Source: Paraspadella gotoi
Taxonomy: Eukaryota; Animalia; Chaetognatha
Reading direction: 5' to 3'
Assembly (NCBI GenBank): GCA_051294375.1
Contig: CM119264.1
Span: 5,077,045-5,141,044, forward strand
Length of the DNA: 64,000 bases
Shown here piece by piece: positions 2,261 through 63,839 of this stretch. The position numbers were made by a program, and so were the translations under genes. The stretch's first letter is position 1. Each line of letters begins with the position of its first letter. The notes beneath the pieces were generated by a model. That model was not told where the DNA came from and ran no database searches. It saw only the letters and a list, made by a program, of their open reading frames with translations.

Positions 2261-4837
2261 TCAGGTCTGAAACTCGGCGATGATTTCATTTACGGATGCA
2301 ATGGCGCCAGAAAAAATTGCAATGACACTGAAAACTAGGAAGAAAACTGTCCAACAAGATTCGCCACATAAGTCGATCACCATTCTCGGCTCTGAAAAGG
2401 AAGGAGAGAAGCAGGGAAGACAAATAGAGCATTAATGCTCATTTTATTATTGATTATGCAATTTACTTATTATTTAAACCAATGAAATATTGATTTTTTA
2501 TATTGTAAGATTTTTCGCTCGTAAAAATATCATTTCAGGAAAAACTCAAAGATTTCTAGGGACGATGATATATGTACGAAGAAAATAAGAATCTAGTTTG
2601 AGATTAAAATCATTTTCAAAATTTGTCAAACGCGCTGATGAAGGTTAAAAGAAAACAAACTCTTCTAGTTCTACTTTGTAGTAAACTGAGATAAAATCAA
2701 AATTCTTTTAAGAATAAATGTTAACTAAACTAAAGATTTCTAAAAATGATTAATATTTTATTTATACGATCTATATTATATATATTATTATTATTATAGA
2801 AGTTGTACAATTTTTATATAATATAATATACATCATAGAAAATGCAAAGCCGAGACCTTCAAAACAGGCTATCATTCAACTGAGAGTAGAGTTTACGGTT
2901 GCATAGATACGCCGTCACTTCGTTTTACAAACGAAAAAAATCGTTCTGTACAAAGGCAGCAAATGATTTTTATAATATTGCTCAATTTTCTCATCTCTCC
3001 AGGCAATGATTTACGTCAATAATCCATCCATATTCCTTCAATAACATAATTTTTTTACTTCAAAAATTATTTTAATCAACATCGACCATATTAATAATCA
3101 TACTGCAGTCAGACTCGCTAACCTTGTTGTTGTTCTTCGCAACAAATCGATAGCAACCGGAATCGAAATGGAAACTGGAATTCCAAAGATGGCACCGACC
3201 AGCGAAATGAAAGGCCCTTGATCATGAAAGAGTCAAGTTTAAAGTTGATATTAATTTGGTAAGAAATATATTTTAAAACTAATCTTATGACATGTATCTG
3301 TAATTTCCCTCTTCAAACATCACGACCAGAATCAACTCATGGAAACTGGATCCCAAACTCCCACAGCCCACCGATATGAGGAAGGAAGCGGCAAAGGCGC
3401 AGTGAAGACTACGACGGCTACTCTGACGAACGTAGTCCCAGACGTCAACTCGACGCTCGTTGACGATCCACTTCTTGATGCGACGACCGAAGAGGATCTC
3501 GTGGGCGACGAGGAATGGATGGCGTAGAGGAGATGACAACGACTGAGAAGACCATCTTCAGGCTAGAGTGGGTAATGGTCAGAGTTGGGAATAGTGATAT
3601 TTTTGGATTTGAATTGTACCTTTTTCTGAGAATGAAAAGTCTTGTAAGATGAAATAATCATACTATATGAATGATTACTACATTTTGTTATCTTTAGAGT
3701 ACTGCAGAGATAAATATTCAAAACTAACAACAATCACATCCGATCAATTCAAAAACTTTTTCTAAAAATGCACAGTTCAACCTATCGTAAAGCGGTTCAT
3801 TGGGTAAGTTGAGTGTGATGACGCCCATGGCCTTGTCACCGACTCTCATGTAGCCAAAAAAAGCGATGGCGAAGTAGAAGATGGTGACCAAACTGAGTCC
3901 AATATTGATGACACCGAATGAAGAGGTCATTCTTCCGGTTCCGCCATTTTGTTTTCCAGGGGAAGAACGACGCAGATACCTATAGAAAAGAATGGGTAAT
4001 GGACAAACGCGATTATTGATGACAAAAGAAATAATGAAAGTCACCTGAAAATCAAACAATCGCAATCAATTTTTTATATGGTTTACTAATTTTATATCAA
4101 AATATCTAAAAACTGTCACAACACGACCTTCAAATGAAAAGGCGACGGTAGAGATAAAGATTGGGTATTTGAAGGGATTGATCTCTACCAGCTTGACCTC
4201 GTCCAGTGGAAGAAACTCCTCCAGTAAAAATCCGAAGAAATGATGGTGCCTACGATTTGGACAGCAATGCCCACGATGGAGACCAACGCCAACACTTCGA
4301 CGTTTCGGATCAGATTGATAAGGATGATGACCGGAGAACAAGAGCAATGTAGGCCTGGACAAGGATTTAGAAAGTGGTAATTACACAGATAAAAAATTAA
4401 ATAATAAAAGTGTCACTTTATTGCGTATTCTGAGCTCTCACCTGTACTGGCCAATGTCAAGCTGTAATTATCTCGAAAGTATTCGTATAATGCATCTGAT
4501 TCATGTACAATATTCAAAGCTGTAATTGATGACTTCGCGAATATTTTCTCCTGATAATACAAATTAAATGCGATGAATATCAAAAAGAGTAATCAATTAT
4601 GTAGTAGACAATAAGTCAAAGATTAAAACAGTTAATTTTTTTAGTTTAAAAAATCCTCTTGTACTATAAAGACAAAATAAATAATGAGAAAGCCCATTTG
4701 CTGACGCACAAAATAGAATTCATAAATTTTTTGGCGTATTTTGAGAACCATTGACATTTTTTGGTCCATACTCAAACGCAAACTGTAGTGTGTAGCCATA
4801 GTCCATTCGATTACGACCCGTAAACTTGCAGAACAAT
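2261..4837 (-). CDS. SLC36: SLC36/PAT-family proton-coupled amino acid transporter (Aa_trans); multi-exon, 5' exons not found, several apparent frameshifts
   Basis: Exons at about 4837-4664 (MDYGYTLQFAFEYGP; MGFLIIYFVFI), 4551-4442 (ENIREVI), 4355-4128 (INLIRNVEVLA; PIFISTVAFSFEG), 3979-3782 (ICVVLPLENKM; FGVINIG; FFGY; VITLNLPNEPLYD), 3562-3372, 3219-3123 (PFISLVGA) and 2392-2261 (WRILLDS...ASVNEIIAEFQT*). These are SLC36 hallmark motifs in the right order. Confidence 0.9.
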
Positions 4838-12500: not shown

Positions 12501-13837
12501 TTAAAAAATTAATATATGGAATATGGAGTAATATTAAAATTTTTTGTCTATTCAAATTTTTTAAAAAATGTCTAAATTTTTGTTTGAGCAGGTGCTTAAT
12601 TCAAATTTCTTAACCACCTTACTGAGTTAGGTTCCCCCTACTATTATTGCTTTATTGTTTTTATTCCCACGGTCAGGCTCTCTGCTTCCACATCCTTGTC
12701 CACTTAAAGATGCACCTCAACTTTTTGTTGGTAGCCGAATTCCGTCCTAAACTCTGCAGGAGGAAGAAGAAAAAAGCGTCGGTGAAGAAGATCCTAAATG
12801 TGAGAGATGGGGAGGTAGAATTGAAGTTGATTTTATTTAATAGAGGATTTTGAAAGTACTGATATGTAGAAGGGTGATATGCTTTGCGTTATAAAAGAAA
12901 ATAAATATTAGGTACTAGGTAGTGTTTTTTCCGTAGCCTATAAAAAAATTTTAGCTTCGTTATTAGATACCAAAGGTGAAGAAGATAGAGATGAAAACTT
13001 TTCCCGACATTTTTACCTTTCTTTTACTCTCTTTTCATCTCTTTTTTTTCACAGAATCCTTCCAACAGTCCACCAACTTCTCCTCGTTCCCGAACTTCTA
13101 TTCCATCCCCTTATCGATCCCCAAAGACATCGATTCACCCTTCTCCCCACAGATCCCCCCTTTCCTCATCACTTATCACCGCCTCTCCCTCGGTCCACGG
13201 GGGAGGATTAGATCACTCCCCCTACCAGTCTGTCCCTTCACCCTCTTCATCCTATCCTAACCATTCCCCCTATCGTTCTCCTTTTCGAAGCTCCTTTACC
13301 CCAAACCACAGCGCCCATTCTCCCTCTAGTCACCCTTCTCAATCCCCATATCGCTCTCCATTTCGCAATTCCTTTACTCCCAATCACAGCCCCCGCCCTC
13401 CACCTGGTCACTCGTCCAAATCCCCTCATCGTTCCCCTTACAGGAACAGCCTAACCCAAAAATCCACTTACCCTTCCCAATCCCCTTATCGGTCTCCCTT
13501 TCATCACGCCATTACCTCTACTAAATGTAGCCCCCACTCTCCTGGTGAGGTTGAGCGCCCACGCCCCTCCCCGGGCTCCCGAAAAGCGGGCTCACTGCAT
13601 CGGGCTTCAGGCGAAGAATGCTTGGAGGATCGTCGCTCCTTAACGGGAACATGGTCGGGCTTGGATAAACGACGGGGCTCCGGTTCTGGCTTCTCTACGG
13701 CTACGGCGGCTGCCGGCTGGTGGAAATCTCCCGTCGGGCTTTCGCCAGGCAGAACCAGTGTCAATATTGGCATATACTGTGGCGAAAGGCCTATTACTCG
13801 TCACCTGCTGAAGAAACCTTCATCAGTTGGAGTGTGA
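9506..13837 (+). CDS. Four-exon gene for a ~401-aa protein with 3 predicted TM helices and a Ser-Pro/SPYRSP-repeat tail
   Basis: Exons 9506-9636, 10670-10818, 12672-12814 and 13055-13837. Intron phases 2, 1 and 0 all join in frame. All donors are GT; acceptors are AG except exon 3 (CACG). The last exon has 260 stop-free codons. Confidence 0.75.
12200..12645 (-). mobile_element. Family A transposon terminal sequence, inside intron 2 of the 9506-13837 gene
   Basis: Inverted diverged copy of 6215-6660. Confidence 0.7.
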
Positions 13838-48699: not shown

Positions 48700-51600
48700 C
48701 CGAACCCGTGCCGCTCGCGCCGTGCCGGCCAATCTGCCCGCGGCGGCACAGCACAATTTCGACAACGCCGACCCCAATTGGTGGAAGAATTTCTTCCATG
48801 ATTTCGATCCCTTCAAAAATCCTTGGCTGCAGAAAAAGACCAACGACAACGACGACGACGACGACGAAAACAACGTCGCTAAATTTACGGTGAGAAAGAA
48901 TTTCCTTTTCCCTTTTGTTTTTCCTGATTGCCTTTTGAATTTCTCTCTCTCTTTCTCTCTCTCTCTTCCTCTCTTCTTCTCTCTCTCCTCTCTCTGCTCT
49001 CTCTTTATCTCTCCTCTACTCTCTCCTCCTCTCTCCTTTCTTTCTTCATCTTTCTTTCTTTCTTTGCTTCTTTCTCTTAGTCTTTCTTACTCTTTTCTTG
49101 TCCTTTCTTTCTTTCCTGGTCTCCTGTCTGCCGTGGTTTTCTCTTCTCTCTGTCCACTGTCCTGCCTTTCTAACTTAATCCTAACATTGTATAAACTGGC
49201 ATAATTTGGTAACGTGGCTGATATCAATTTGGTTAACTGTCCATATTATGCTCAAATCAGGCAATAATTTGGTCAACTGGCATAATTTTATCAAAAGTGG
49301 CATGAATTTGCATCAATTTGCAGAAGTTTGGTGCACTTTGAATAAATTTTGTCAACTAGCATAATTTTGTCGTTGAATTCAATTCAATCAATTAACAATC
49401 AATTCAAGTCAGCAGAGAGTAATTAGATGAGGAAACTATTAAAATTCAATAAATGTGTTTTGTTTTACTAATTTAAACTCTTTTTCCACTTCCTACGATT
49501 CCATTCATTAAATTTCCCTATCCCAGCTTAGCAATTATACTTCCACACCCACACACGAAAATTTCATTTCCAATCCATGCCATCCTATATCACGAGTAAT
49601 TGGACAAGTTTAATGAAAGGCTTGGGACGACACTTCTGGACCAGCAGAGACAGACGACGACGACGGACACGGGAACGACGCAATCTTTATTTGCACACAA
49701 TTTATCATAATTCGATTTTCTGACTGATGTGTAAATGAGTACCCGAACAAATTTGAGGGGACAGCGACGGACCCGACAAGAGTGGGATTATAGATTCCGG
49801 GAATCTGGCTTGAAGCAGATCTCGACTAAAAGTTAAAAAAAAAAAAGANNNNNNNNNNNNNNNNNNNNNNNNNCTTTCTTTCTTTCTTTCTTTCTTTCTG
49901 TCTCTGTCTGCCCGTTGGTTTTCTCTCTCTCTCTGTCCCTGTCCTGCTTTCTAACTTACTCTACATTGTATAACTGGCATAATTTGGTAAACTGGCATAA
50001 TTTGGTTAACTGTCATATTATGCTCAACCGGCATAATTTGGTCAACTGGCATAATTTTATCAAGTGGCATAATTTGATCAATTTGCAGAATTTGGTCACT
50101 TGAATAATTTTGTCAACTAGCATAATTTTGTCGATTAATCAATCAATCAATCAATCAATCAATCAGAGAGAGATAGATTGAAGGAAACTATTAAAAATTC
50201 AAATAAATGTGTCTTTTGGTTTTCTAATTTAAACTCTTTTCCACTTCTACGATTCCATCATAAATTTCTATCCAGCTTAGCAATATACTTTCCTACCCAC
50301 ACACAAAATTTCATTCCAATCCATGCCATTCTATATCACGAGTAAAGTAATTGGGAGTTTAAAATGAAAAGGTTGGGACGACACCTTCTGGACCAGACAG
50401 ACAACAGACCAGACGGACGGACGGACGGACGGACGGGAACGGAAACCGGACAATCATTTTATTTTTGCATCAACAATTTATCATAATTCGATGTTCTGAG
50501 CTTGAAAATGTGTAAATGAGTACCCAACAAATTTACGGGGGGGACAAGCGACGGACCGACAAAGTGGATATAGATTCCGGGAATCCTGTTAGAAGCAGAT
50601 CCACTAAAAGTAAAAAAAAAAAAGANNNNNNNNNNNNNNNNNNNNNNNNNNNNNNNNNNNNNNNNNNNNNNNNNNNNNNNNNNNNNNNNNNNNNNNNNNN
50701 NNNNNNNNNNNNNNNNNNNNNNNNNNNNNNNNNNNNNNNNNNNNNNNNNNNNNNNNNNNNNNNNNNNNNNNNNNNNNNNNNNNNNNNNNNNNNNNNNNNN
50801 NNNNNNNNNNNNNNNNNNNNNNNNNNNNNNNNNNNNNNNNNNNNNNNNNNNNNNNNNNNNNNNNNNNNNNNNNNNNNNNNNNNNNNNNNNNNNNNNNNNN
50901 NNNNNNNNNNNNNNNNNNNNNNNNNNNNNNNNNNNNNNNNNNNNNNNNNNNNNNNNNNNNNNNNNNNNNNNNNNNNNNNNNNNNNNNNNNNNNNNNNNNN
51001 NNNNNNNNNNNNNNNNNNNNNNNNNNNNNNNNNNNNNNNNNNNNNNNNNNNNNNNNNNNNNNNNNNNNNNNNNNNNNNNNNNNNNNNNNNNNNNNNNNNN
51101 NNNNNNNNNNNNNNNNNNNNNNNNNNNNNNNNNNNNNNNNNNNNNNNNNNNNNNNNNNNNNNNNNNNNNNNNNNNNNNNNNNNNNNNNNNNNNNNNNNNN
51201 NNNNNNNNNNNNNNNNNNNNNNNNNNNNNNNNNNNNNNNNNNNNNNNNNNNNNNNNNNNNNNNNNNNNNNNNNNNNNNNNNNNNNNNNNNAAGGGTAAAG
51301 ACCCGAAGAATGACGGCGGGAAAATGGGCGTGGCTCGAGATAAATGACTTTTCGAATCACGACGCCGATGATCGGATGGAAACGCCGACGGCTTTNNNNN
51401 NNNNNNNNNNNNNNNNNNNNNNNNNNNNNNNNNNNNNNNNNNNNNNNNNNNNNNNNNNNNNNNNNNNNNNNNNNNNNNNNNNNNNNNNNNNNNNNNNNNN
51501 NNNNNNNNNNNNNNNNNNNNNNNNNNNNNNNNNNNNNNNNNNNNNNNNNNNNNNNNNNNNNNNNNNNNNNNNNNNNNNNNNNNNNNNNNNNNNNNNNNNN

Positions 51601-53538
51601 NNNNNNNNNNNNNNNNNNNNNNNNNNNNNNNNNNNNNNNNNNNNNNNNNNNNNNNNNNNNNNNNNNNNNNNNNNNNNNNNNNNNNNNNNNNNNNNNNNNT
51701 CTCTGCATTTCTTCCATTTCATTCTAATTTCCTTTTCTCGCTCTGGTTTTTGGTTTCTTGCGAATTTTTCTCTCCTGATAAACTTCTTCATCTTCGTCCT
51801 TAACATAAAAAAAAAGGGATTTGTGAGTCTTGAGTCAGTGATTCACGTGATTCAGTCAGGATTTACATGTGATTCAGTAAGAATTTTTAGGCGATTCTAT
51901 AAGCCTTTTAACGTTATTCTGTAAGATGTTTCACATGATTCAGTAAGACTTTTGACTAGATTCACCGTGGCTTTCAATCCATTCAGTGAGGCTTTTCACG
52001 CCCTTTGACGACGGTGACTTTCGCGAGTTGAATTTAAAATTTATTCGAGGTTCTTTGGGTTCTAAACGTACAAGTTGACCCTATCCATAAAACGGGACCC
52101 CGCCATGAAAAAAATGTCCTTTTCCTGCGGTTTGACCCCATAAAAAACAACCGAGTCGCAAAACGACGATGCAAGTCGTAAACAGAAATCAATTCTATTT
52201 TTTTCTATATATATTTTTTATGTTACCGCTATTTTTAATCCCTTAGTTTTCTATAGTTAATTTTTTACATAATATATTATATAATATATATTTACTATAT
52301 AATTTTACTTACTTAAATGGTACTTTGAATTTAAGAATCAGTTTTATGACAAAATACCTATTTTAACCAAAGTGTCAAGAAAAAAAAATCAAGGTCTGCT
52401 TTCATCTCCGACGTTTTTCTCTCTTAAATTCCAAGGATCTTTGGCGCCCGATGTTTTTGGCTTGTGNNNNNNNNNNNNNNNNNNNNNNNNNNNNNNNNNN
52501 NNNNNNNNNNNNNNNNNNNNNNNNNNNNNNNNNNNNNNNNNNNNNNNNNNNNNNNNNNNNNNNNNNNNNNNNNNNNNNNNNNNNNNNNNNNNNNNNNNNN
52601 NNNNNNNNNNNNNNNNNNNNNNNNNNNNNNNNNNNNNNNNNNNNNNNNNNNNNNNNNNNNNNNNNNNNNNNNNNNNNNNNNNNNNNNNNNNNNNNNNNNN
52701 GAAACTTTTGAAAGGTTCCAATTTTTCCTTCAATCTGCTATTTAGTTTTTGCCTAGTTTTAATGTTAATATAATATTTATTTTAAAAAAGTTCTTTGTTC
52801 TTTGATTGTAAAGATGTTAAAAATCGCGAAAATATCACGAGCGATTTACCGTGGATTTAAATCTGCGATATAANNNNNNNNNNNNNNNNNNNNNNNNNNN
52901 NNNNNNNNNNNNNNNNNNNNNNNNNNNNNNNNNNNNNNNNNNNNNNNNNNNNNNNNNNNNNNNNNNNNNNNNNNNNNNNNNNNNNNNNNNNNNNNNNNNN
53001 NNNNNNNNNNNNNNNNNNNNNNNNNNNNNNNNNNCGAGTTGAAATTGCATTTCACGCCCATCAGAATCGCTCAGTTGTCGTCGTCGTTGTCGTCGTTGTT
53101 GTCGGCGTCTCTCCCTCCGGACTATGTCGGTCTGTCCGTCTGAATGAAATCCTGTCGTTGCAAACGTCAGTAAACAAAGAGAAACTATCCCCGTCCCACT
53201 TTCTCTACCTCAGCCCTCCAGGGAACTTGGGAGTGGGAGAACGGCGCCTGGCGATGGCATCACGTCGGTACTCACGGCGCCGCCCACGACCGCGACGCCG
53301 CGTCGAAGAACGCCGCGAGGTGAGGACTCGGCGCCCCATGGAAAGTTAGTTCCGAATCAGCTCTAGTACCAAATTGAGAAAATCTGTCTGAAGGCTCAAA
53401 ACGCGAGAAGAGAAGAAAATATAAGCAGAATGAAAGTTTTTTTTTAAATCCGTCTGAAGCGAAAAGAGAGGGAATGATATCAGGTCTAGTGATAAAAAAA
53501 TAGGAGAGAGAAAGAAAAGAAGAAAGAAATGATGAAAA

Positions 53539-53578
<40 letters not shown>

Positions 53579-54119
53579 GAGAAAGAAAGAGAGAAAGAAA
53601 GCGAAAAAGGAAAAGCGTTCTATTTTTTCTTATTTTCCCGCCTTATATTCGCTCTACATCCCGACTTTTCTCTCAGTTTCTCCAACTCCATTCCTTCGCG
53701 TAACTCGAACCCTTTCCCCGCCGCCACCGCCGACGCCACCGCCGACGCCGCCTGGTGGAAAAAATGGCGACAGCTCAACTCGGGGTCCGACGTTTACGGA
53801 ATAAATCACAAAAACAACAACAACAACCACAACTTTAAACCTCCAAAAAACATCGGGCGAGTCACAGGCAAAAGCAGCTACCATGACGAATTTCACAACA
53901 TCAACAATAACAACAACAACATCGATCACGGGGACCGTGGAACGCATCTGGGCGCCGGCGCCAAACACGACAACGACCACGACGACGACTATTACTACGA
54001 CTACGACGATGAAGACGATTTTCGTAGCGGCGAATTGAAAACTGGCGTCGGTAAAGCGTCGGGCGTCAGAGACGACAACGGCGGCGACGTTGTCGGTAAA
54101 AAAGCCGACAGGATTAAAG
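48700..54119 (+). CDS. Partial multi-exon gene for a Trp-motif, Asp/Asn/His-rich low-complexity protein
   Basis: AG/GT-bounded open exons at 48700-48889, 53214 (or 53222)-53319 and 53677-54119 (147 codons), plus a coding-like island between gaps at 51292-51395. The 53319/53677 junction is in phase (AG|T), and 48889 can join 53222 in phase 0. Start and end are not resolved. Confidence 0.65.
49965..50130. repeat. 18-bp minisatellite (AACTGGCATAATTTGGTY)
   Basis: About 9 units; a noisy duplicate lies at 49190-49370. Confidence 0.9.
50165..50612 (-). mobile_element. HINE family H1, minus orientation (noisy duplicate at about 49410-49832)
   Basis: TTCCTACCCACACACAAAATT core, (GGAC)n tract and AGCAGATCCACTAAAA terminus. 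Confidence 0.75.
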
Positions 54120-54238
54120 GTTTGTTTATTTTTCTGCATCAGGTGAAGAAGGTTTAAATCAAAATTGGTTTTTGTCTCTTGTCGGTTATTGCTAGTCTGA
54201 TTTTTTTCATTTTTTAACATTTCGTGACAGTATATATA

Positions 54239-54372
54239 TTAAGGCGGGCCAAAATTGATCACTTTTTATCATTAAGAGTTCTGTAATATAATATTCATTT
54301 GTTCATCACATACTTAATCAATATTTAATATCACTTTTTAACTAGTGAAGCACAGTATAACATTAAAGCATT
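54239..54372 (+). mobile_element. Family B MITE-like fragment abutting the truncated Gypsy element
   Basis: Matches 15426-15545. Confidence 0.7.
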
Positions 54373-54375
54373 TAG

Positions 54376-57300
54376 TGAATCTGACGGACAGATGCAAGCC
54401 CGTACAACCTTTGCTGGAGCTGGTCACAATTGGTGGATGAACAAGCTACCAATGGGAAGCGTCACAGTGTCAACGTCCTCCAGGCCATCCTGGATGAAAT
54501 CTTAAGGACTTGGGCACCGATGTCAAAGTTTTTTGATCTATGTTGATGACCTCATCCTCACAGCTAAGTCACCGGAAGATATGCGGCAAGGCTCCGTGAT
54601 CTGCTGCAAAAAATGCAGGGACGAAAAATGTGGTCCTCAAGTGGACCAAGAGCGTCCTGCTACGCAAGAGGACATCAAGATCCTTGGATTCAGCATATCC
54701 AAGAACAAGCTCATGCCTCAAAAGGAAAAGCCTTGAGGCAGTGGAGTCAATGCTCAAGAAACTGAAAACCCAAAAAGAACTAAGGGCAATGCTGGCTCCC
54801 TAAACTACTACAGATGTTTTACCCACCGCTTCTCGTACATGGCCCAGCCACTTCACGCACTGACACTTCTTAGATAAAAAGGACTTCACAACTCACCGTG
54901 AGCACCTGCAAATGCTGGCAGCAACTGGTGGAGGAGATCAAAACCTCGCCTGGGCTAAACTTCCTGAATGACTCACGATCAACATGGAACATACAGAATC
55001 TACGCGATGCCAGCACAAGTGCAATGGTGGGTTGATGACTGCCACTGCTGATGGTGTCGAGTATCCTCTATCCTTCACTCCAAGTCATTTCCAGAAGAAT
55101 ATAGGATAAAACATATAAACATTCTGAGACCCTGGCCTTCAACTGATGGTCAGGAAGTTCAAGGCCACACATGTGGAGGAGGGTCACACTTGTCACTTGA
55201 CTCACAATATTTAAGAGAGTGATGGACCTTCAGCATGACAGGCGCAAATTCTGCCAACAAACGTTTTAAGATGGATCACAGAGATCCGCCAGGAGTGCCA
55301 GCCCCAAGGAAGTCATTCTTGTCAAAAGTGAGGACAATCCTGCAGACTTCCTCACACGCTTACAGAACAGGTCAAGTCAACCACTGGACACCCCCTTCTT
55401 TCCAGCGGCTTTGATGTCAATGGCGAGTATGAACCTGGCTTTGCCGAGAACCCTATAAAGGAATATGAAAACGCCGAGCACCTTGACCTTGTGACGGGAC
55501 ATGCCCAACATTGGCACTAATGGCACAAACTCTACAGGAAGAACCGAAAACCTCAGAGTCAAGTTCTTTAAATTTGTGCGCCGAAGATTTGCTGAAAGAA
55601 GGTCAAACATCGAGAAGTTGTATGGTAAACGAAAACCAAAACGCCGACACCTTCATAAGGACCATCTCAGCAAAGGATTGGAGCTTGGCCATCCAGAGCT
55701 TGAACTGCTAAGTGAGATGACTGGGCATCACATTGGCATTTGGACGAGGACTCTGCCGCGAGAAAACTGGCTGCAATTTGAAAGGATATATGGTCCTCCA
55801 GAAGGTGACAGAAAAATCAAAATCTTTAGAACAATACCGGGCCAAGTCAGCCTTGTCAGCGATGAACACAATCAACCAACTCTCCGCCCCATCAAAAATG
55901 ACCAATCCAAAACAATTGAAGTAGCAACTTTAAGGCGGCCTGATCCCGTGGAAGGCCCAGGAGACTTCAGGTCAATGCCATCATGTCAAACACCCTCCCA
56001 GATGACCTTGTCAGCATACAGATGATAATGAAGAACACGCCCACCCTCAGGCATATACCCAAAATGGATAGCTGCTGTGGAGGGTTGAAACAAGATGGCC
56101 AGGCGCCGAGAGAAAAGTCATGGTAGACAGCACCCTGAGGCCGGACATCGATGCCACGGAGCTGAGGTCGAGGAGGAGATTGCTAAAACGCCCAAGAAAG
56201 AAAAGAAGAACTTGTCCCAATAGCCACTGAAGTTAAGGCATGGCAACAAGAAGATGAATCCTTCAAACTTGTAGTTATGCTCTCATAAAGCGATCAAGAA
56301 GGTGCAAAGAAAAAGCTTGATTAAAAAATGCAAAAAGGAAACAGTGACAGAAAAATATCTTCCAATTGCCATCGCGATCTGATGTACCAGCAAGGAATCC
56401 TCATCCTCAGGGGCTACAAAGCTGATGCTCCCAACAAGCAAATTTGTCGTCCCACCAAACAGAGCTGAGGAAATCACCAAGCAGCTCCACAAGCATTTTG
56501 GACATCCTGCCGAGACAGGAACAGCCTTCATCACAGCCCAATCATTCGCACCAGGATTGTCAGCAGCAGCAACAAAATGTTTAAGAAACTGTGAAACTGT
56601 GCCAAGGCTACTGATGCCCAAGCACAATGAGACACCCTCAGCACCCAACCTGGCCATTGCACCCTGGAATCCCTCAGCATTGATGTGATGCACCTCCCCC
56701 AGCGCTGGATATCATGTCACTAATGCATCTGAATAATGCATCTGCCTACACCTGGGCCATCCCCTGCGGCCGCGCAGATGCAGCGACAATCGTCAAGGCT
56801 TTGGAATGAAAAGATTTTTTGCAACACGTTCCTATTTAGACCGTAAACTTGATGGTGCCACACACTAAATGGAATTGCCATGAGATCAATATCAATCTAC
56901 TTGAATACAGTTGGCAGACGCGTATAGTGGGCCAAAGGACAGCAATAGGGCTGAGAGAGACATTGGCAGGATCCGCCAAGCCTGCCGCAAAGCTGTGGAA
57001 GACAAACCCAACAAATGGCTAGAGCAGCTTCCGCACCTAATGCTCTCCTCAACGCGACGCCCATAGTTGGAATGGAGACAGATATGTCGCCGCATGAAAT
57101 ACAGTTTGGTCACCGACCACGAATGTAAGAGCGCGGACGACTACACAAAAGAAATCTCATTGACTTTATCGACAAAGGGCTGATAAGCAGGAAAAGCACA
57201 AGCCAACTGGCAGAACAAAGACACAGGCTTTATCGCCAATCAGCACGGAGAAATCCCTACAGACGGCCACAAGACATCAAAATCGGGGACCTGGTACTCA

Positions 57301-57480
57301 CGAGGCGAGACCTGATAATGACAGGCGCTGCGCCAACTGAAACAGGTTAAACGGATTTATTCTGGGCCCCATAAAGTGATAGAAAAAGATGGAAATCACT
57401 ATACGTCATGATCGCCGGCAAAAGCATGAATATCACAGACGCCGGCTAAAGCTGCACACAGGAAAAGTGGCGCAGTAAAC
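54376..57480 (+). pseudogene. Degraded, 5'-truncated Ty3/Gypsy pol: RT - RNase H - inserted domain - integrase
   Basis: KLPMG and IYVDDLIL (RT, 54539); DAS and VKSEDNPADFLTRL (RNase H, to about 55365); HKHFGHP...CET(C) zinc finger (56487-56605); RAERDIGRI (integrase core Glu); YSGPHKVIEK (GPY/F-like, 57358). RT-RH-IN order indicates Gypsy. Many frameshifts. Confidence 0.9.
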
Positions 57481-57827
57481 CAACTGATTAGAAATAAAAC
57501 TGTAAATATTTTGTACATAGCCTTATCAACATGTAGATAATCAAATAGTTTGTGAATAAAGCTCATAATTTCGCAGCCGTAAATTAAACAACGAAATTGA
57601 AATCAGAACAAAAACTCAAAATAAACCCTAAGAAAGAAATTCAGTAAAAAGAATAATAATAACAACAAAAAACAAATGACTCTTTCTCAAGATGACAACG
57701 GAAACCGCTTTTCTTCAAAAGTCGCTAAACGATAATAGCGACGATAAGGAGACAAAGAGATCCCCTCCTTTAAAAGTCAAGACAGAAGCAACACTCCGGC
57801 TACCGACTGACCGCGTCGCCGTCATCT

Positions 57828-58160
57828 GAGGAGGGGGGGACGCATCACAGAGGAATGAACCCGGAAACAGAGGAAAGGATTAAGGAAGAGGATTCCGGAA
57901 GAGGAAGAAGATTCTGGAACGATTTCGAACGGGATTTTGGAAGCCAAATCAGAAAGGAACAATACTTTCCGGAAGAGGAAAAGAAGAGGAAGAGGAGGAT
58001 TCCGGAAGAGGAATCTGGCTTCGTCTACTTGTCCATTATAAATAGCCTCTGTTTCTGCTTTGATTCACTCTGTCTGAAAATTGACACCGTCTTCTCTTGT
58101 CTATTTTCTAATAAAATTCCACCTTGATTTCATATCGAAATCCCTGTCTTCTTACTTAAA
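57828..58160 (+). mobile_element. Polypurine tract and 3' LTR of the Gypsy element
   Basis: GAGGAGGGGGGGA (57828-57840), then a ~320-bp block with repeated TTCCGGAAGAGG, TATAAATAG (58037) and AATAAA (58110). The canonical TG start appears as CG. Confidence 0.7.
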
Positions 58161-62132: not shown

Positions 62133-63839
62133 ATGAAAAGACTTGCATTGACCTCCCTTCAGAATCGATTTTTAGTGGAGCACCTTGTCTTACCGGATTT
62201 TGAAAAATATTTGCAACGAGATCGATTAGGATTTCTTAATTTGCTCGTTCAATCGTTTAGAGGTAAGCAAATATTGGCGCTGTTTTCCGAAAGCGCCTCA
62301 TTTCAGTTCCTAATCCCTAAACTTAATTTTAACTGAATTCTAAATTTAAGCTGAAATGTGGCGCTATAGAAAAAGATTTCCCAAGTGTTATTATAGCGAT
62401 TCATTTTGTTTTCATAGTGACGTGGGGATCAGATTAAAAATCATGTAAAAAAGATTCAAAATAAAAAAACAGTCTTAGAGAGAACACAACTATTTTTCAC
62501 GCATAATTTAATGTTAACTGACGAAATATTTCAGCAACGGTCAGTTTGCCGGTGACACCCATAGTACGGGATATTTCACCAACTGGCGTTGGGGCTTTTA
62601 ACTTTCAATGACTGCTTTCTGACACTGACACTAAAACAAAACAAAACAAACTAACAAAACACTGTTTTTCATTTACGTACAATAGATTTGTTCAACGCTG
62701 TTCCCTTTGACATTTAAATCTTGTCTTCTGGGTATTTTTTTTAAAATCGCCACAAAAACTTGCCACAATTTGACTATTTAAAAATGAATGATGAGTTTTA
62801 ACGTAGATTCACTTTTGAAAATAATAAATTATTAAAAATTAATATTGAATTTTTTCCCTTTTTTAATGTCCTATTTCCTACGAAAAAAGTAAAAGTTCCA
62901 TTCAATTCTCTTCAATATACATCATTGGTTCAACGAAGTTCCGGAGTCACACCAAGCATTGATTCGGATGCTCTTACAACTGAAATTCTGCGAGGCCATG
63001 GGGCGTCGTGTGCTTCAGCCAATGTCTTCATGGCTGACCTTCTGCGGCGTTTTGGCTTTGATGCTGGCATTATTGCTGGTTTTCCGGCTTCGGCACCCCG
63101 CCTAATCCCATCAGCGCTTCACTTAGCCGTTGTTGTAAACGAGAAACCTGGAGTTTTTCACTATATTGATGTAGGATCGACACTGCCAATTATTCAAGCA
63201 GTTCCAGTTGATATTTTCGCCTCTGAAATGGGTTCAACGGCGTCTGGATTTGTCACTAATTTTTGCTTCATAACCAAGAATAGCATGGAGAGTTTTATCT
63301 TAAAACAACATCACATGCTTTCTGAAAAAGATGTGACTATGGCTCAACAATTGTTATCGCGAATTAGTAAAAGATGCCCAATTGAAGGGAAAAAAGAAAA
63401 TAATTCCTGGATTATCAATTTTGTCGTCAATGATGAATGGCTATCTGCCGGGATTCCATTATTTGAAAGAATTCCTCATGGTGTTTGGTTTCCCTATCAG
63501 ATATTTCCATCAACAAGCCCGTTAACCCCGGAGAGAGTAAGGTCAATATTTGGGCGATTCCACATTAGCGGTGCTGAAAGTGCACGGCGCCAATGTGTTG
63601 TTTCTGGTTTTGGCGATAAATGGGGCGACTTCGTGATGTTCACTCGAGATAGGCGGGTTCGACGCGTCAATGGGTCAACGATCCCGATGGTAGAAGAAGC
63701 GAAAAATCTTGAAGAGCACAGCTCCGCTTTCAATGAAGAGTTTCCACGTTTGACGGATCAGTTCAGAGAAAATTTGATTTATTTGTCTAAATTTGAAAAT
63801 AAATTTTCAGAAAAGCTAGCTGTTGCTAGACAAAATTGA
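62133..63839 (+). CDS. NAT: Arylamine N-acetyltransferase family protein, two coding exons (62133-62262 and 62890 or 62896-63839), about 359 aa
   Basis: Phase-1 intron (AG|GTAAGC) joins in frame to KVPFNSL (cf. NAT PFENL). Catalytic triad motifs RGHGASCASAN (Cys), LHLAVVV (His) and YIDVG (Asp) occur in NAT order and spacing. Confidence 0.88.

What the first reader, a model, noticed from the sequence alone, without database searches (positions are those of the whole stretch)
53214..53319. Exon encoding a natural tryptophan-zipper hairpin (TWEWENGAWRWH)
Seen: an AG/GT-bounded exon missed by the ORF track reads LQGTWEWENGAWRWHHVGTHGAAHDRD and splices in phase to the 53677 exon. Established: the designed beta-hairpin trpzip2 is SWTWENGKWTWK; all four Trp and the ENG turn match in register. 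Bacterial WXXGXW repeats have a similar pattern. Inference: an autonomously folding mini-domain in an otherwise disordered animal protein, possibly for self-assembly or ligand binding.
Basis: partly seen in the sequence, partly recalled or inferred. Interest (0 to 1): 0.7.

Follow-up and report, generated by a model that had tools for sequence, protein, structure and literature searches.

The report
Trp-zipper-like hairpin in orphan animal protein
A short animal exon, matched end to end by one likely transcript fragment, likely encodes a 12-residue stretch that matches the lab-designed "tryptophan zipper" at 7 of 12 positions and is predicted to fold the same way; it would act as a sticky patch in an otherwise predicted-floppy orphan protein, but the same motif also occurs in bacterial repeat proteins.

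Summary
53214-53319 has canonical splice sites, and one contig of run X1 matches it with 0 mismatches, stops at the GT donor and runs on elsewhere. The join to 53677 is phase-compatible but was not seen. All three frames are open; the Trp frame is favoured (about 0.88), with one contrary codon test.

The 12-mer matches trpzip2 at 7 of 12 positions, including all four Trp and the ENG turn. AlphaFold2 predicts the same hairpin. The flanking exons are Asn/Asp/His-rich, predicted disordered, and have no homologues. The genome is probably an arrow worm's (earlier unreviewed note).

The motif is not unique to design. Exact W-x-W-x-N-G-x-W-x-W occurs in bacterial WXXGXW repeats, PAS kinases and other proteins, about ten times above chance, and the repeats are predicted to fold in the same register. 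The exon fails WXXGXW membership, so the likeness is probably convergent.

Best reading: a self-folding aromatic sticker in a lineage-specific structural protein. It has Ala at trpzip's anti-aggregation Lys8. Secretion, folding and function are untested. The scan's notes showed no earlier copy of this finding. Interest is modest.

The parts
53214..53319 (+). Exon B (106 nt, phase 1 in, phase 2 out): hairpin motif followed by a His/Ala/Asp-rich tail
   Evidence: Splice signals; X1 contig matches 53213-53319 exactly and leaves the genome at the donor; in the Trp frame C3 is 0.50 and RNY 0.44
53225..53260 (+). Trpzip2-like 12-mer (T-W-E-W-E-N-G-A-W-R-W-H); predicted two-strand hairpin with an Asn-Gly turn
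53219..53221 (+). Alternative CAG acceptor (exon start 53222, phase 0 in the Trp frame); would join exon A directly in the Trp frame
   Evidence: Sequence. The one X1 contig does not use it, since it includes 53214-53221
53320..53676 (+). Predicted GT-AG intron, 357 nt, containing an AGAA repeat
   Evidence: donor supported; acceptor use inferred
53677..54119 (+). Exon C: Asn/Asp/His-rich, with a WWKKW motif and an acidic Tyr cluster. 3' end uncertain (donors after 54050, 54095 or 54119; stop at 54155-54157 if terminal)
48700..48889 (+). Exon A, likely an upstream exon of the same gene: R-x-x-R site, WWK motif, Asp/Asn run; phase-0 donor
   Evidence: Splice signals; codon bias like exons B and C; link to exon B inferred, not shown
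51291..51395 (+). CpG-rich island between two N gaps with a G-K-W-A-W half motif; possibly part of a hidden exon with indel errors
   Evidence: CpG o/e 1.9; weak frame switch; below threshold in the exon scan

Best explanation
The stretch is a likely spliced coding exon of a lineage-specific Asn/Asp/His-rich animal protein, and its four-tryptophan 12-mer is predicted to fold as a trpzip-type beta-hairpin that would act as an aromatic sticker, likely cross-linking copies of an otherwise disordered, likely extracellular structural protein. Shown: splice sites, one contig that leaves the genome at the donor, the motif, and its 7/12 match to trpzip2. Predicted: the hairpin (Asn-Gly turn, Trp pairs 2:11 and 4:9 by analogy, a possible Glu3-Arg10 cross-strand salt bridge) and the disorder of the rest. 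Inferred: Ala at position 8 removes the Lys that is proposed to keep trpzip2 monomeric, so hairpins would stack; the His/Asp-rich spacers would bind metal such as Zn; the product would serve in a chitinous or epidermal matrix such as arrow-worm grasping spines. The likeness to trpzip2 and to bacterial WXXGXW units is likely convergent. Component odds: real exon 0.9, Trp frame 0.88, hairpin populated in solution 0.65, self-association role 0.4, spine or teeth location 0.12.
For: X1 contig boundaries. Frame: codon model from the spliced SLC36-like gene gives +36 bits for the Trp frame over the rival; position model +2.6 against -6.3 and -14.8 bits; RNY 15 of 34 codons, P = 0.03 over the best of three frames; NCG codons 0.09 against 0.37 in the rival frame; exon C is open only in this frame. 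Fold: AlphaFold2 strands 4-9 and 12-17, turn at Asn-Gly, pLDDT 86 and 84 over residues 1-20 and about 50 after; top PDB sequence hit is the peptide APT, 2mnu_B, E 0.0016. Disorder: FoldIndex -0.22, -0.13 and -0.21 for exons A, B, C against +0.21 for the control ORF (formula recalled). Composition of the 244 residues: N 13.5%, D 13.1%, H 5.7%, W 4.1%, no Cys or Met. Lys8 as aggregation gatekeeper: PMC10593748 section 6. Zn-rich granules in chitinous spines: PMC11836706 passage. Novel genes mark chaete and epidermal cells: PMC12460157 passages.
Against: The codon model trained on the AT-rich NAT-like ORF favours the rival frame by 42 bits, and pooling all three genes by 6 bits. Exon A's donor is phase 0 and the acceptor used by X1 is phase 1, so the Trp frame needs a hidden exon in the N gaps or the 53222 acceptor. 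The contig's first letters are compatible with a direct exon A join, which would give the rival frame. No signal peptide or start codon was found, so secretion is not shown. There is only one hairpin, whereas sticker proteins usually repeat theirs. No homologue exists to show conservation. AlphaFold2 may have memorised trpzip-like entries. In PMC10593748 Val, not Ala, was the best fibre-forming residue at position 8, in simulations on Trpzip1. The transcript evidence is one contig at depth 2.3 from one study. The taxon comes from an unreviewed note.
Confidence: 0.38

Rival explanations
1. The hairpin folds, but it is a docking motif for a partner protein or an intracellular condensate sticker in a non-secreted disordered protein.
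For: No signal peptide found; a single copy of the motif; the best PDB sequence hit is the 26-residue peptide APT (its being an engineered binder on a trpzip scaffold is recalled); W-x-W-x-N/D-G half motifs occur in animal binding domains NKG2D and DTX1 (E 1.4 and 4.6, not significant).
Against: The R-x-x-R site near the start of exon A and the acidic Tyr cluster in exon C resemble secretory-pathway processing sites (recalled consensus; sequence).
Confidence: 0.22
2. The protein is a precursor cut at basic sites into Trp-rich peptides, and the hairpin peptide is a released antimicrobial or signalling product.
For: An R-x-x-R site and several KK pairs in exons A and C; Trp/Arg/Lys-rich segments; synthetic Trpzip gels are reported to be antimicrobial (PMC10593748 introduction passage).
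Against: No dibasic site flanks the hairpin within exon B; there is no repeated amidated peptide core; exon B is near neutral (pI 6.4); exons A and C show no significant similarity (E 7.7).
Confidence: 0.12
3. The exon is coding in the Trp frame, but the trpzip match is a coincidence in a Trp- and Asn-rich protein and the hairpin is not selected or not populated.
For: About 1 chance match is expected in 250,000 windows in any frame; the protein has other Trp clusters; 86 of 124 bacterial genome matches lie in frames shorter than 150 codons, so the pattern often arises off-frame; no conservation data.
Against: Per-residue chance in a proteome is about 6e-11; beyond the searched pattern it also has Glu5, an opposite-charge pair at 3:10, and the Gly two residues before the first Trp that bacterial units carry.
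Confidence: 0.15
4. The exon is translated in another frame (Pro/Thr/Arg-rich, ending at the TAA at 53802-53804), so the Trp peptide is never made.
For: That frame is open through exon B and 41 codons of exon C; exon A's phase-0 donor joined to 53214 gives it; the NAT-trained codon model prefers it.
Against: It would leave 104 stop-free, C3-biased codons as 3' UTR (shuffle P = 0.011 for the open frame alone); it has 37% NCG codons against 3-9% in accepted coding sequence; models from spliced genes reject it.
Confidence: 0.1
5. The exon descends from a horizontally acquired bacterial WXXGXW repeat.
For: The best bacterial unit shares 9 of 14 core residues (L188); the fold register is the same.
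Against: No Pfam WXXGXW hit at E up to 1; one unit, with no Pro-rich linker or flanking strands; no hit at E up to 0.001 among 1.84 billion representatives. The match to my own HMM is circular, because the units were picked by the same pattern.
Confidence: 0.03

Closest known systems
Trpzip2, designed 12-residue hairpin (sequence read in PMC12271999 Table 1; related PDB chains 2mnu_B and 32mp_A)
   Same: 7 of 12 identical; Trp at 2, 4, 9, 11; ENG turn; same predicted register.
   Different: Natural and embedded in a larger protein; Thr3/Thr10 replaced by Glu/Arg, Lys8 by Ala, Lys12 by His; folding not measured.
Bacterial WXXGXW repeat proteins (Pfam PF12779)
   Same: They contain exact G-x-W-x-W-x-N-G-x-W-x-W units; AlphaFold2 puts the turn on the same Asn-Gly in L041 (strands 24-28 and 31-35).
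   Different: Tandem multi-strand meanders with Pro-rich linkers; the exon has one hairpin, does not hit PF12779, and sits in a spliced animal gene.
Pneumococcal LytA choline-binding repeat hairpin LytA239-252 (PMC4471590, passages)
   Same: A natural short aromatic hairpin that folds alone (about 100% populated, 227 nm CD band) and binds a small ligand.
   Different: Part of a repeat solenoid; less stable than trpzip3/4 according to that paper; no sequence relation was tested.
His-rich invertebrate hard-tissue proteins (Nereis Nvjp-1, chiton RTMP1, sponge glassin; all recalled, no call)
   Same: Low-complexity His/Asp-rich or Trp-containing orphans tied to metal- or mineral-hardened matrices.
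   Different: Compositional resemblance only; here His is 5.7% and Asn/Asp dominate; no homology was tested or found.

Membership tests
Tryptophan zipper (trpzip2 type) | Four Trp at positions 2, 4, 9, 11 of a 12-mer | tested here: met
Tryptophan zipper (trpzip2 type) | Asn-Gly turn at 6-7 in a two-strand hairpin | tested here: met
   Sequence; AlphaFold2 strands 4-9 and 12-17. Prediction only, possibly memorised
Tryptophan zipper (trpzip2 type) | Edge-to-face cross-strand Trp pairs giving the 213/227 nm CD couplet and cooperative melting as an isolated peptide | not testable with these tools
   Needs CD or NMR; side-chain geometry of the model was not available
Tryptophan zipper (trpzip2 type) | Monomeric and soluble (Lys8 gatekeeper) | tested here: not met
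   Ala at position 8; the oligomeric state itself is unmeasured
WXXGXW repeat (PF12779) | Reaches the Pfam gathering score (18 bits) | tested here: not met
   0 families for the exon at E up to 1; 4 of 14 bacterial motif carriers passed
WXXGXW repeat (PF12779) | Tandem copies forming a multi-strand meander | tested here: inconclusive
   One motif in the window, but 1,364 N bases lie between exons A and B and the island holds a half motif
Secreted structural or matrix protein | N-terminal signal peptide | tested here: inconclusive
   No convincing first exon in the exon scan; the assembly is indel-rich
Secreted structural or matrix protein | Expression in matrix-forming cells | not testable with these tools
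   Only one contig-level run was available
Chaetognath-specific orphan gene | No homologue outside the phylum | tested here: met
   each search is weak for short or low-complexity queries
Chaetognath-specific orphan gene | Host is a chaetognath and orthologues exist in other chaetognaths | tested here: inconclusive
   Taxon from note e1-10588039; CpG loss on the retroelement only (0.53 against 1.4-1.8 in exons A-C) fits the transposon-only methylation in PMC12460157 but also nematodes and ctenophores; no orthologue found

The most novel reading that the evidence does not exclude
Arrow worms independently evolved the chemists' tryptophan zipper as a stand-alone mini-domain, already lacking the anti-aggregation lysine, and use it as the self-assembling cross-link of a His/Asp-rich, zinc-binding matrix protein of grasping spines or epidermis: a natural, genetically encoded trpzip hydrogel or fibre former.
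Probability: 0.12. Interest if true: 0.75.

Novelty: new variant of a known kind. Interest (0 to 1): 0.4.

Why it matters
If the peptide folds, it is a natural stand-alone counterpart of one of the most studied designed peptides, in an animal orphan gene, and a clean case of evolution and design reaching the same 12-residue solution. It is cheap to test with one synthetic peptide and CD. It would also give a first sequence handle on an arrow-worm structural protein. The surprise is limited because the fold is known, bacteria carry the same motif in tandem repeats, and no function is shown.

Tried and rejected
No whole genome is held, so paralogues and other copies could not be searched. The run search listed no holder on record as RNA; X1 is 'RNA?' by guess. 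Only 53036-53500 was laid with X1, so exons A and C and the junction were not examined with reads. The flanking intron had no cover apart from unrelated microsatellite contigs at 53068-53115; this is not used as evidence.

Homologue searches were empty: exon C against proteins of 280-2000 aa, exon B against 1.84 billion representatives, exon A against 112-2000 aa, Pfam and NCBIfam (one below-cutoff dioxygenase hit for exon A, rejected), and the NAT-like ORF meant to give the taxon. Foldseek against PDB gave nothing at E up to 0.001; the wider structural search could not be run. The two-copy complex job gave no verdict (score 0.01) and is not counted either way. Rfam: 0 matches.

The first codon test used one SLC36 piece partly in the wrong frame; it was redone. 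The minus-strand reading was rejected because the contig's ends fit GT-AG only on the plus strand. A possible last exon near 57690 was rejected because it seems to lie inside the retroelement.

Literature: no description of a natural animal trpzip or of this protein in the listings; YXWGXW 0 papers; WXXGXW 1 paper; chaetognath spines with zinc and silicon 0 papers. The library is open-access only and no supplements were read, so gene tables of the chaetognath genome papers may bear on this. The scan's own notes gave nothing by sequence, words or near place and two unrelated notes.

Full report
Observation. The window is animal-like DNA with 1,943 N bases in 12 gaps and many indel errors; even the SLC36-like transporter gene shifts frame inside exons. 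At 53214-53319 there is a 106-nt stretch between a polypyrimidine tract with AG and a GAG|gtgagg donor. The motif W-x-W-x-[ND]-G-x-W-x-W occurs once in the window, and in 0 of 100 shuffles with up to one mismatch allowed. The expected count is 4e-6 per window for the strict Asn-Gly form, but about 1 over 250,000 such windows in any frame, so expression and frame had to be tested.

Is it an exon? One public run, X1, holds 0.24 of the words of 53040-54400; the tool only guesses that it is RNA. Laid on 53036-53500, one 152-letter contig (depth 2.3) aligns to 53213-53319 with no mismatch or gap. It has two unaligned letters before and 43 after. It therefore starts at the acceptor's G and leaves the genome exactly at the GT donor, which is what a spliced transcript does. 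It also confirms the exon's letters in an error-prone assembly. The 43 letters were not displayed, so the partner exon was not seen. This is one contig from one study.

Which frame? All three frames are open in the exon, and one rival frame stays open into exon C until 53804. For the Trp frame: exon C is stop-free after 53804 only in that frame (0, 1 and 8 stops; shuffle P 0.011). A synonymous-codon model from nine pieces of the spliced SLC36-like gene favours it by 36 bits, a second gene at 1-270 by 16.5 bits, and exon A by 26 bits. RNY codons are 15 of 34 (P 0.03), and the rival frame has 37% NCG codons against 3-9% in accepted coding sequence. Against it: the AT-rich NAT-like ORF as training set favours the rival by 42 bits, and the three genes pooled by 6 bits. 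The likely upstream exon A (48700-48889) ends in phase 0 while 53214 needs phase 1. The Trp frame therefore needs a hidden exon in the 1,364 N bases between them, where a CpG-rich island with a G-K-W-A-W half motif sits, or else the second acceptor at 53222. I put the Trp frame at 0.88.

The protein. Exons A, B and C give 244 residues: Asn 13.5%, Asp 13.1%, Ala 11.1%, His 5.7%, Trp 4.1%, with no Cys or Met. FoldIndex is negative for all three and positive for the control ORF (formula recalled). No Pfam family, no NCBIfam family above cutoff and no homologue was found, and these searches are weak for such queries. No first exon or signal peptide was found. An unreviewed note on the same genome calls it very likely an arrow worm. 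I checked this only indirectly: CpG o/e is 0.53 on the neighbouring retroelement against 1.4-1.8 in the exons, which fits the transposon-only methylation reported for chaetognaths, early nematodes and ctenophores (PMC12460157, passages).

The hairpin. Trpzip2 as printed in PMC12271999 Table 1 (passages) matches at 7 of 12 positions. The best PDB sequence hits are the 26-residue peptides 2mnu_B (E 0.0016) and 32mp_A (E 0.19), 2 of 4 hits at E up to 10. Single-sequence AlphaFold2 gives strands 4-9 and 12-17 with the turn on Asn-Gly; pLDDT is 86 and 84 for the first two blocks of ten residues and about 50 after. Memorisation of trpzip entries cannot be excluded. The differences from trpzip2 are informative. 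Thr3/Thr10 become Glu/Arg, a possible cross-strand ion pair (inference). Lys8, described as an aggregation gatekeeper, becomes Ala; Val was the best fibre former in those simulations (PMC10593748, section 6 read and passages).

Is the motif unique in nature? No. The strict pattern is estimated in about 2,100 stored stretches of the prokaryote genome set, against 86-225 expected by chance, and in about 3,000 metagenome stretches. Of 124 matches in 120 genome loci, 38 in 34 loci lie in stop-free frames of 150 codons or more; of 124 matches in 119 metagenome loci, 37 do. Of 14 carriers that I picked for Pfam, 4 pass WXXGXW, 1 matches it below cutoff, 1 is a PAS/HWE kinase, 1 Big_8, 1 DUF6600, 1 DUF4185, 1 FG-GAP, 1 has VWA below cutoff, and 3 have no family. 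The closest unit shares 9 of 14 core residues. A WXXGXW repeat from L041, folded with a six-row alignment, gives a meander whose strands 24-28 and 31-35 turn on the same Asn-Gly (pLDDT 80). PF12779 is listed without a template in PMC8078820 (one table passage). The exon itself does not hit PF12779. A natural 14-mer hairpin that folds alone is known from LytA (PMC4471590, passages).

Mechanism. I commit to a sticker-and-spacer reading at 0.38: a self-folding aromatic hairpin that associates with other copies, set in His/Asp/Asn-rich disordered spacers that could bind metal, in a lineage-specific structural protein. The context is permissive only. Chaetognath spines are chitinous with zinc-rich granules (PMC11836706, passage), and novel genes mark chaete and epidermal cells (PMC12460157, passages). 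Nothing here places this gene in those cells. The rivals are a partner-docking or intracellular motif (0.22), coincidence (0.15), a peptide precursor (0.12), another frame (0.10) and bacterial transfer (0.03).

Verdict. The exon is real, the motif is real and the hairpin is plausible. It works like a trpzip by sequence and prediction, it is not a WXXGXW family member by test, and its function is unproven. I saw no report of an animal trpzip in the search listings (open-access library, no supplements). PMC12460157, PMC11836706, PMC12271999, PMC4471590, PMC8078820 and bioRxiv 10.1101/2025.01.31.635879 (no mention of tryptophan or histidine) were seen as passages only. Novelty: new variant of a known kind. 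Interest 0.4.

Noticed in passing
L041:178-1632 (also L013, L081, L110, L189, L207, L226): Bacterial WXXGXW repeat proteins carry tandem, near-exact trpzip2-like units and are predicted to form Trp-rich beta-meanders with Asn-Gly turns. I found no paper linking PF12779 to trpzips. They may be the better natural trpzip system.
   Followed up: partly
window 62802-63839 +: Highly diverged arylamine N-acetyltransferase-like ORF (Pfam E 4e-4, below cutoff) with apparent Cys, His and Asp triad motifs (recalled), no homologue, and AT-rich third positions unlike neighbouring genes.
   Followed up: partly
window 2262-4380 -: SLC36-like amino-acid transporter exons (Aa_trans) with several in-exon frameshifts; likely consensus errors, showing that the assembly is indel-rich.
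   Followed up: partly
window 54400-57850 +: Broken LTR retroelement remnant (integrase zinc-binding hit below cutoff) right after exon C, CpG-depleted (o/e 0.53 over 54400-57400) while exons are not.
   Followed up: partly
window 49100-49848 and 49874-50625: About 750-bp near-duplicate on either side of a 25-N gap, differing by many small indels; probably an assembly overlap rather than a real duplication.
   Followed up: no
window 53975-54015 +: Tyr cluster inside an Asp/His run in exon C, resembling tyrosine-sulfation or metal-binding sites (recalled consensus).
   Followed up: no
window 12995-13837 +: 280-codon Ser/Pro-rich ORF with repeated S-P-Y-R-S-P units (78-nt period); no Pfam family.
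   Followed up: no
L001 and related Bradyrhizobium loci: A conserved HWE histidine-kinase protein with a PAS domain carries the exact four-Trp Asn-Gly motif just before or at the start of the PAS fold.
   Followed up: no
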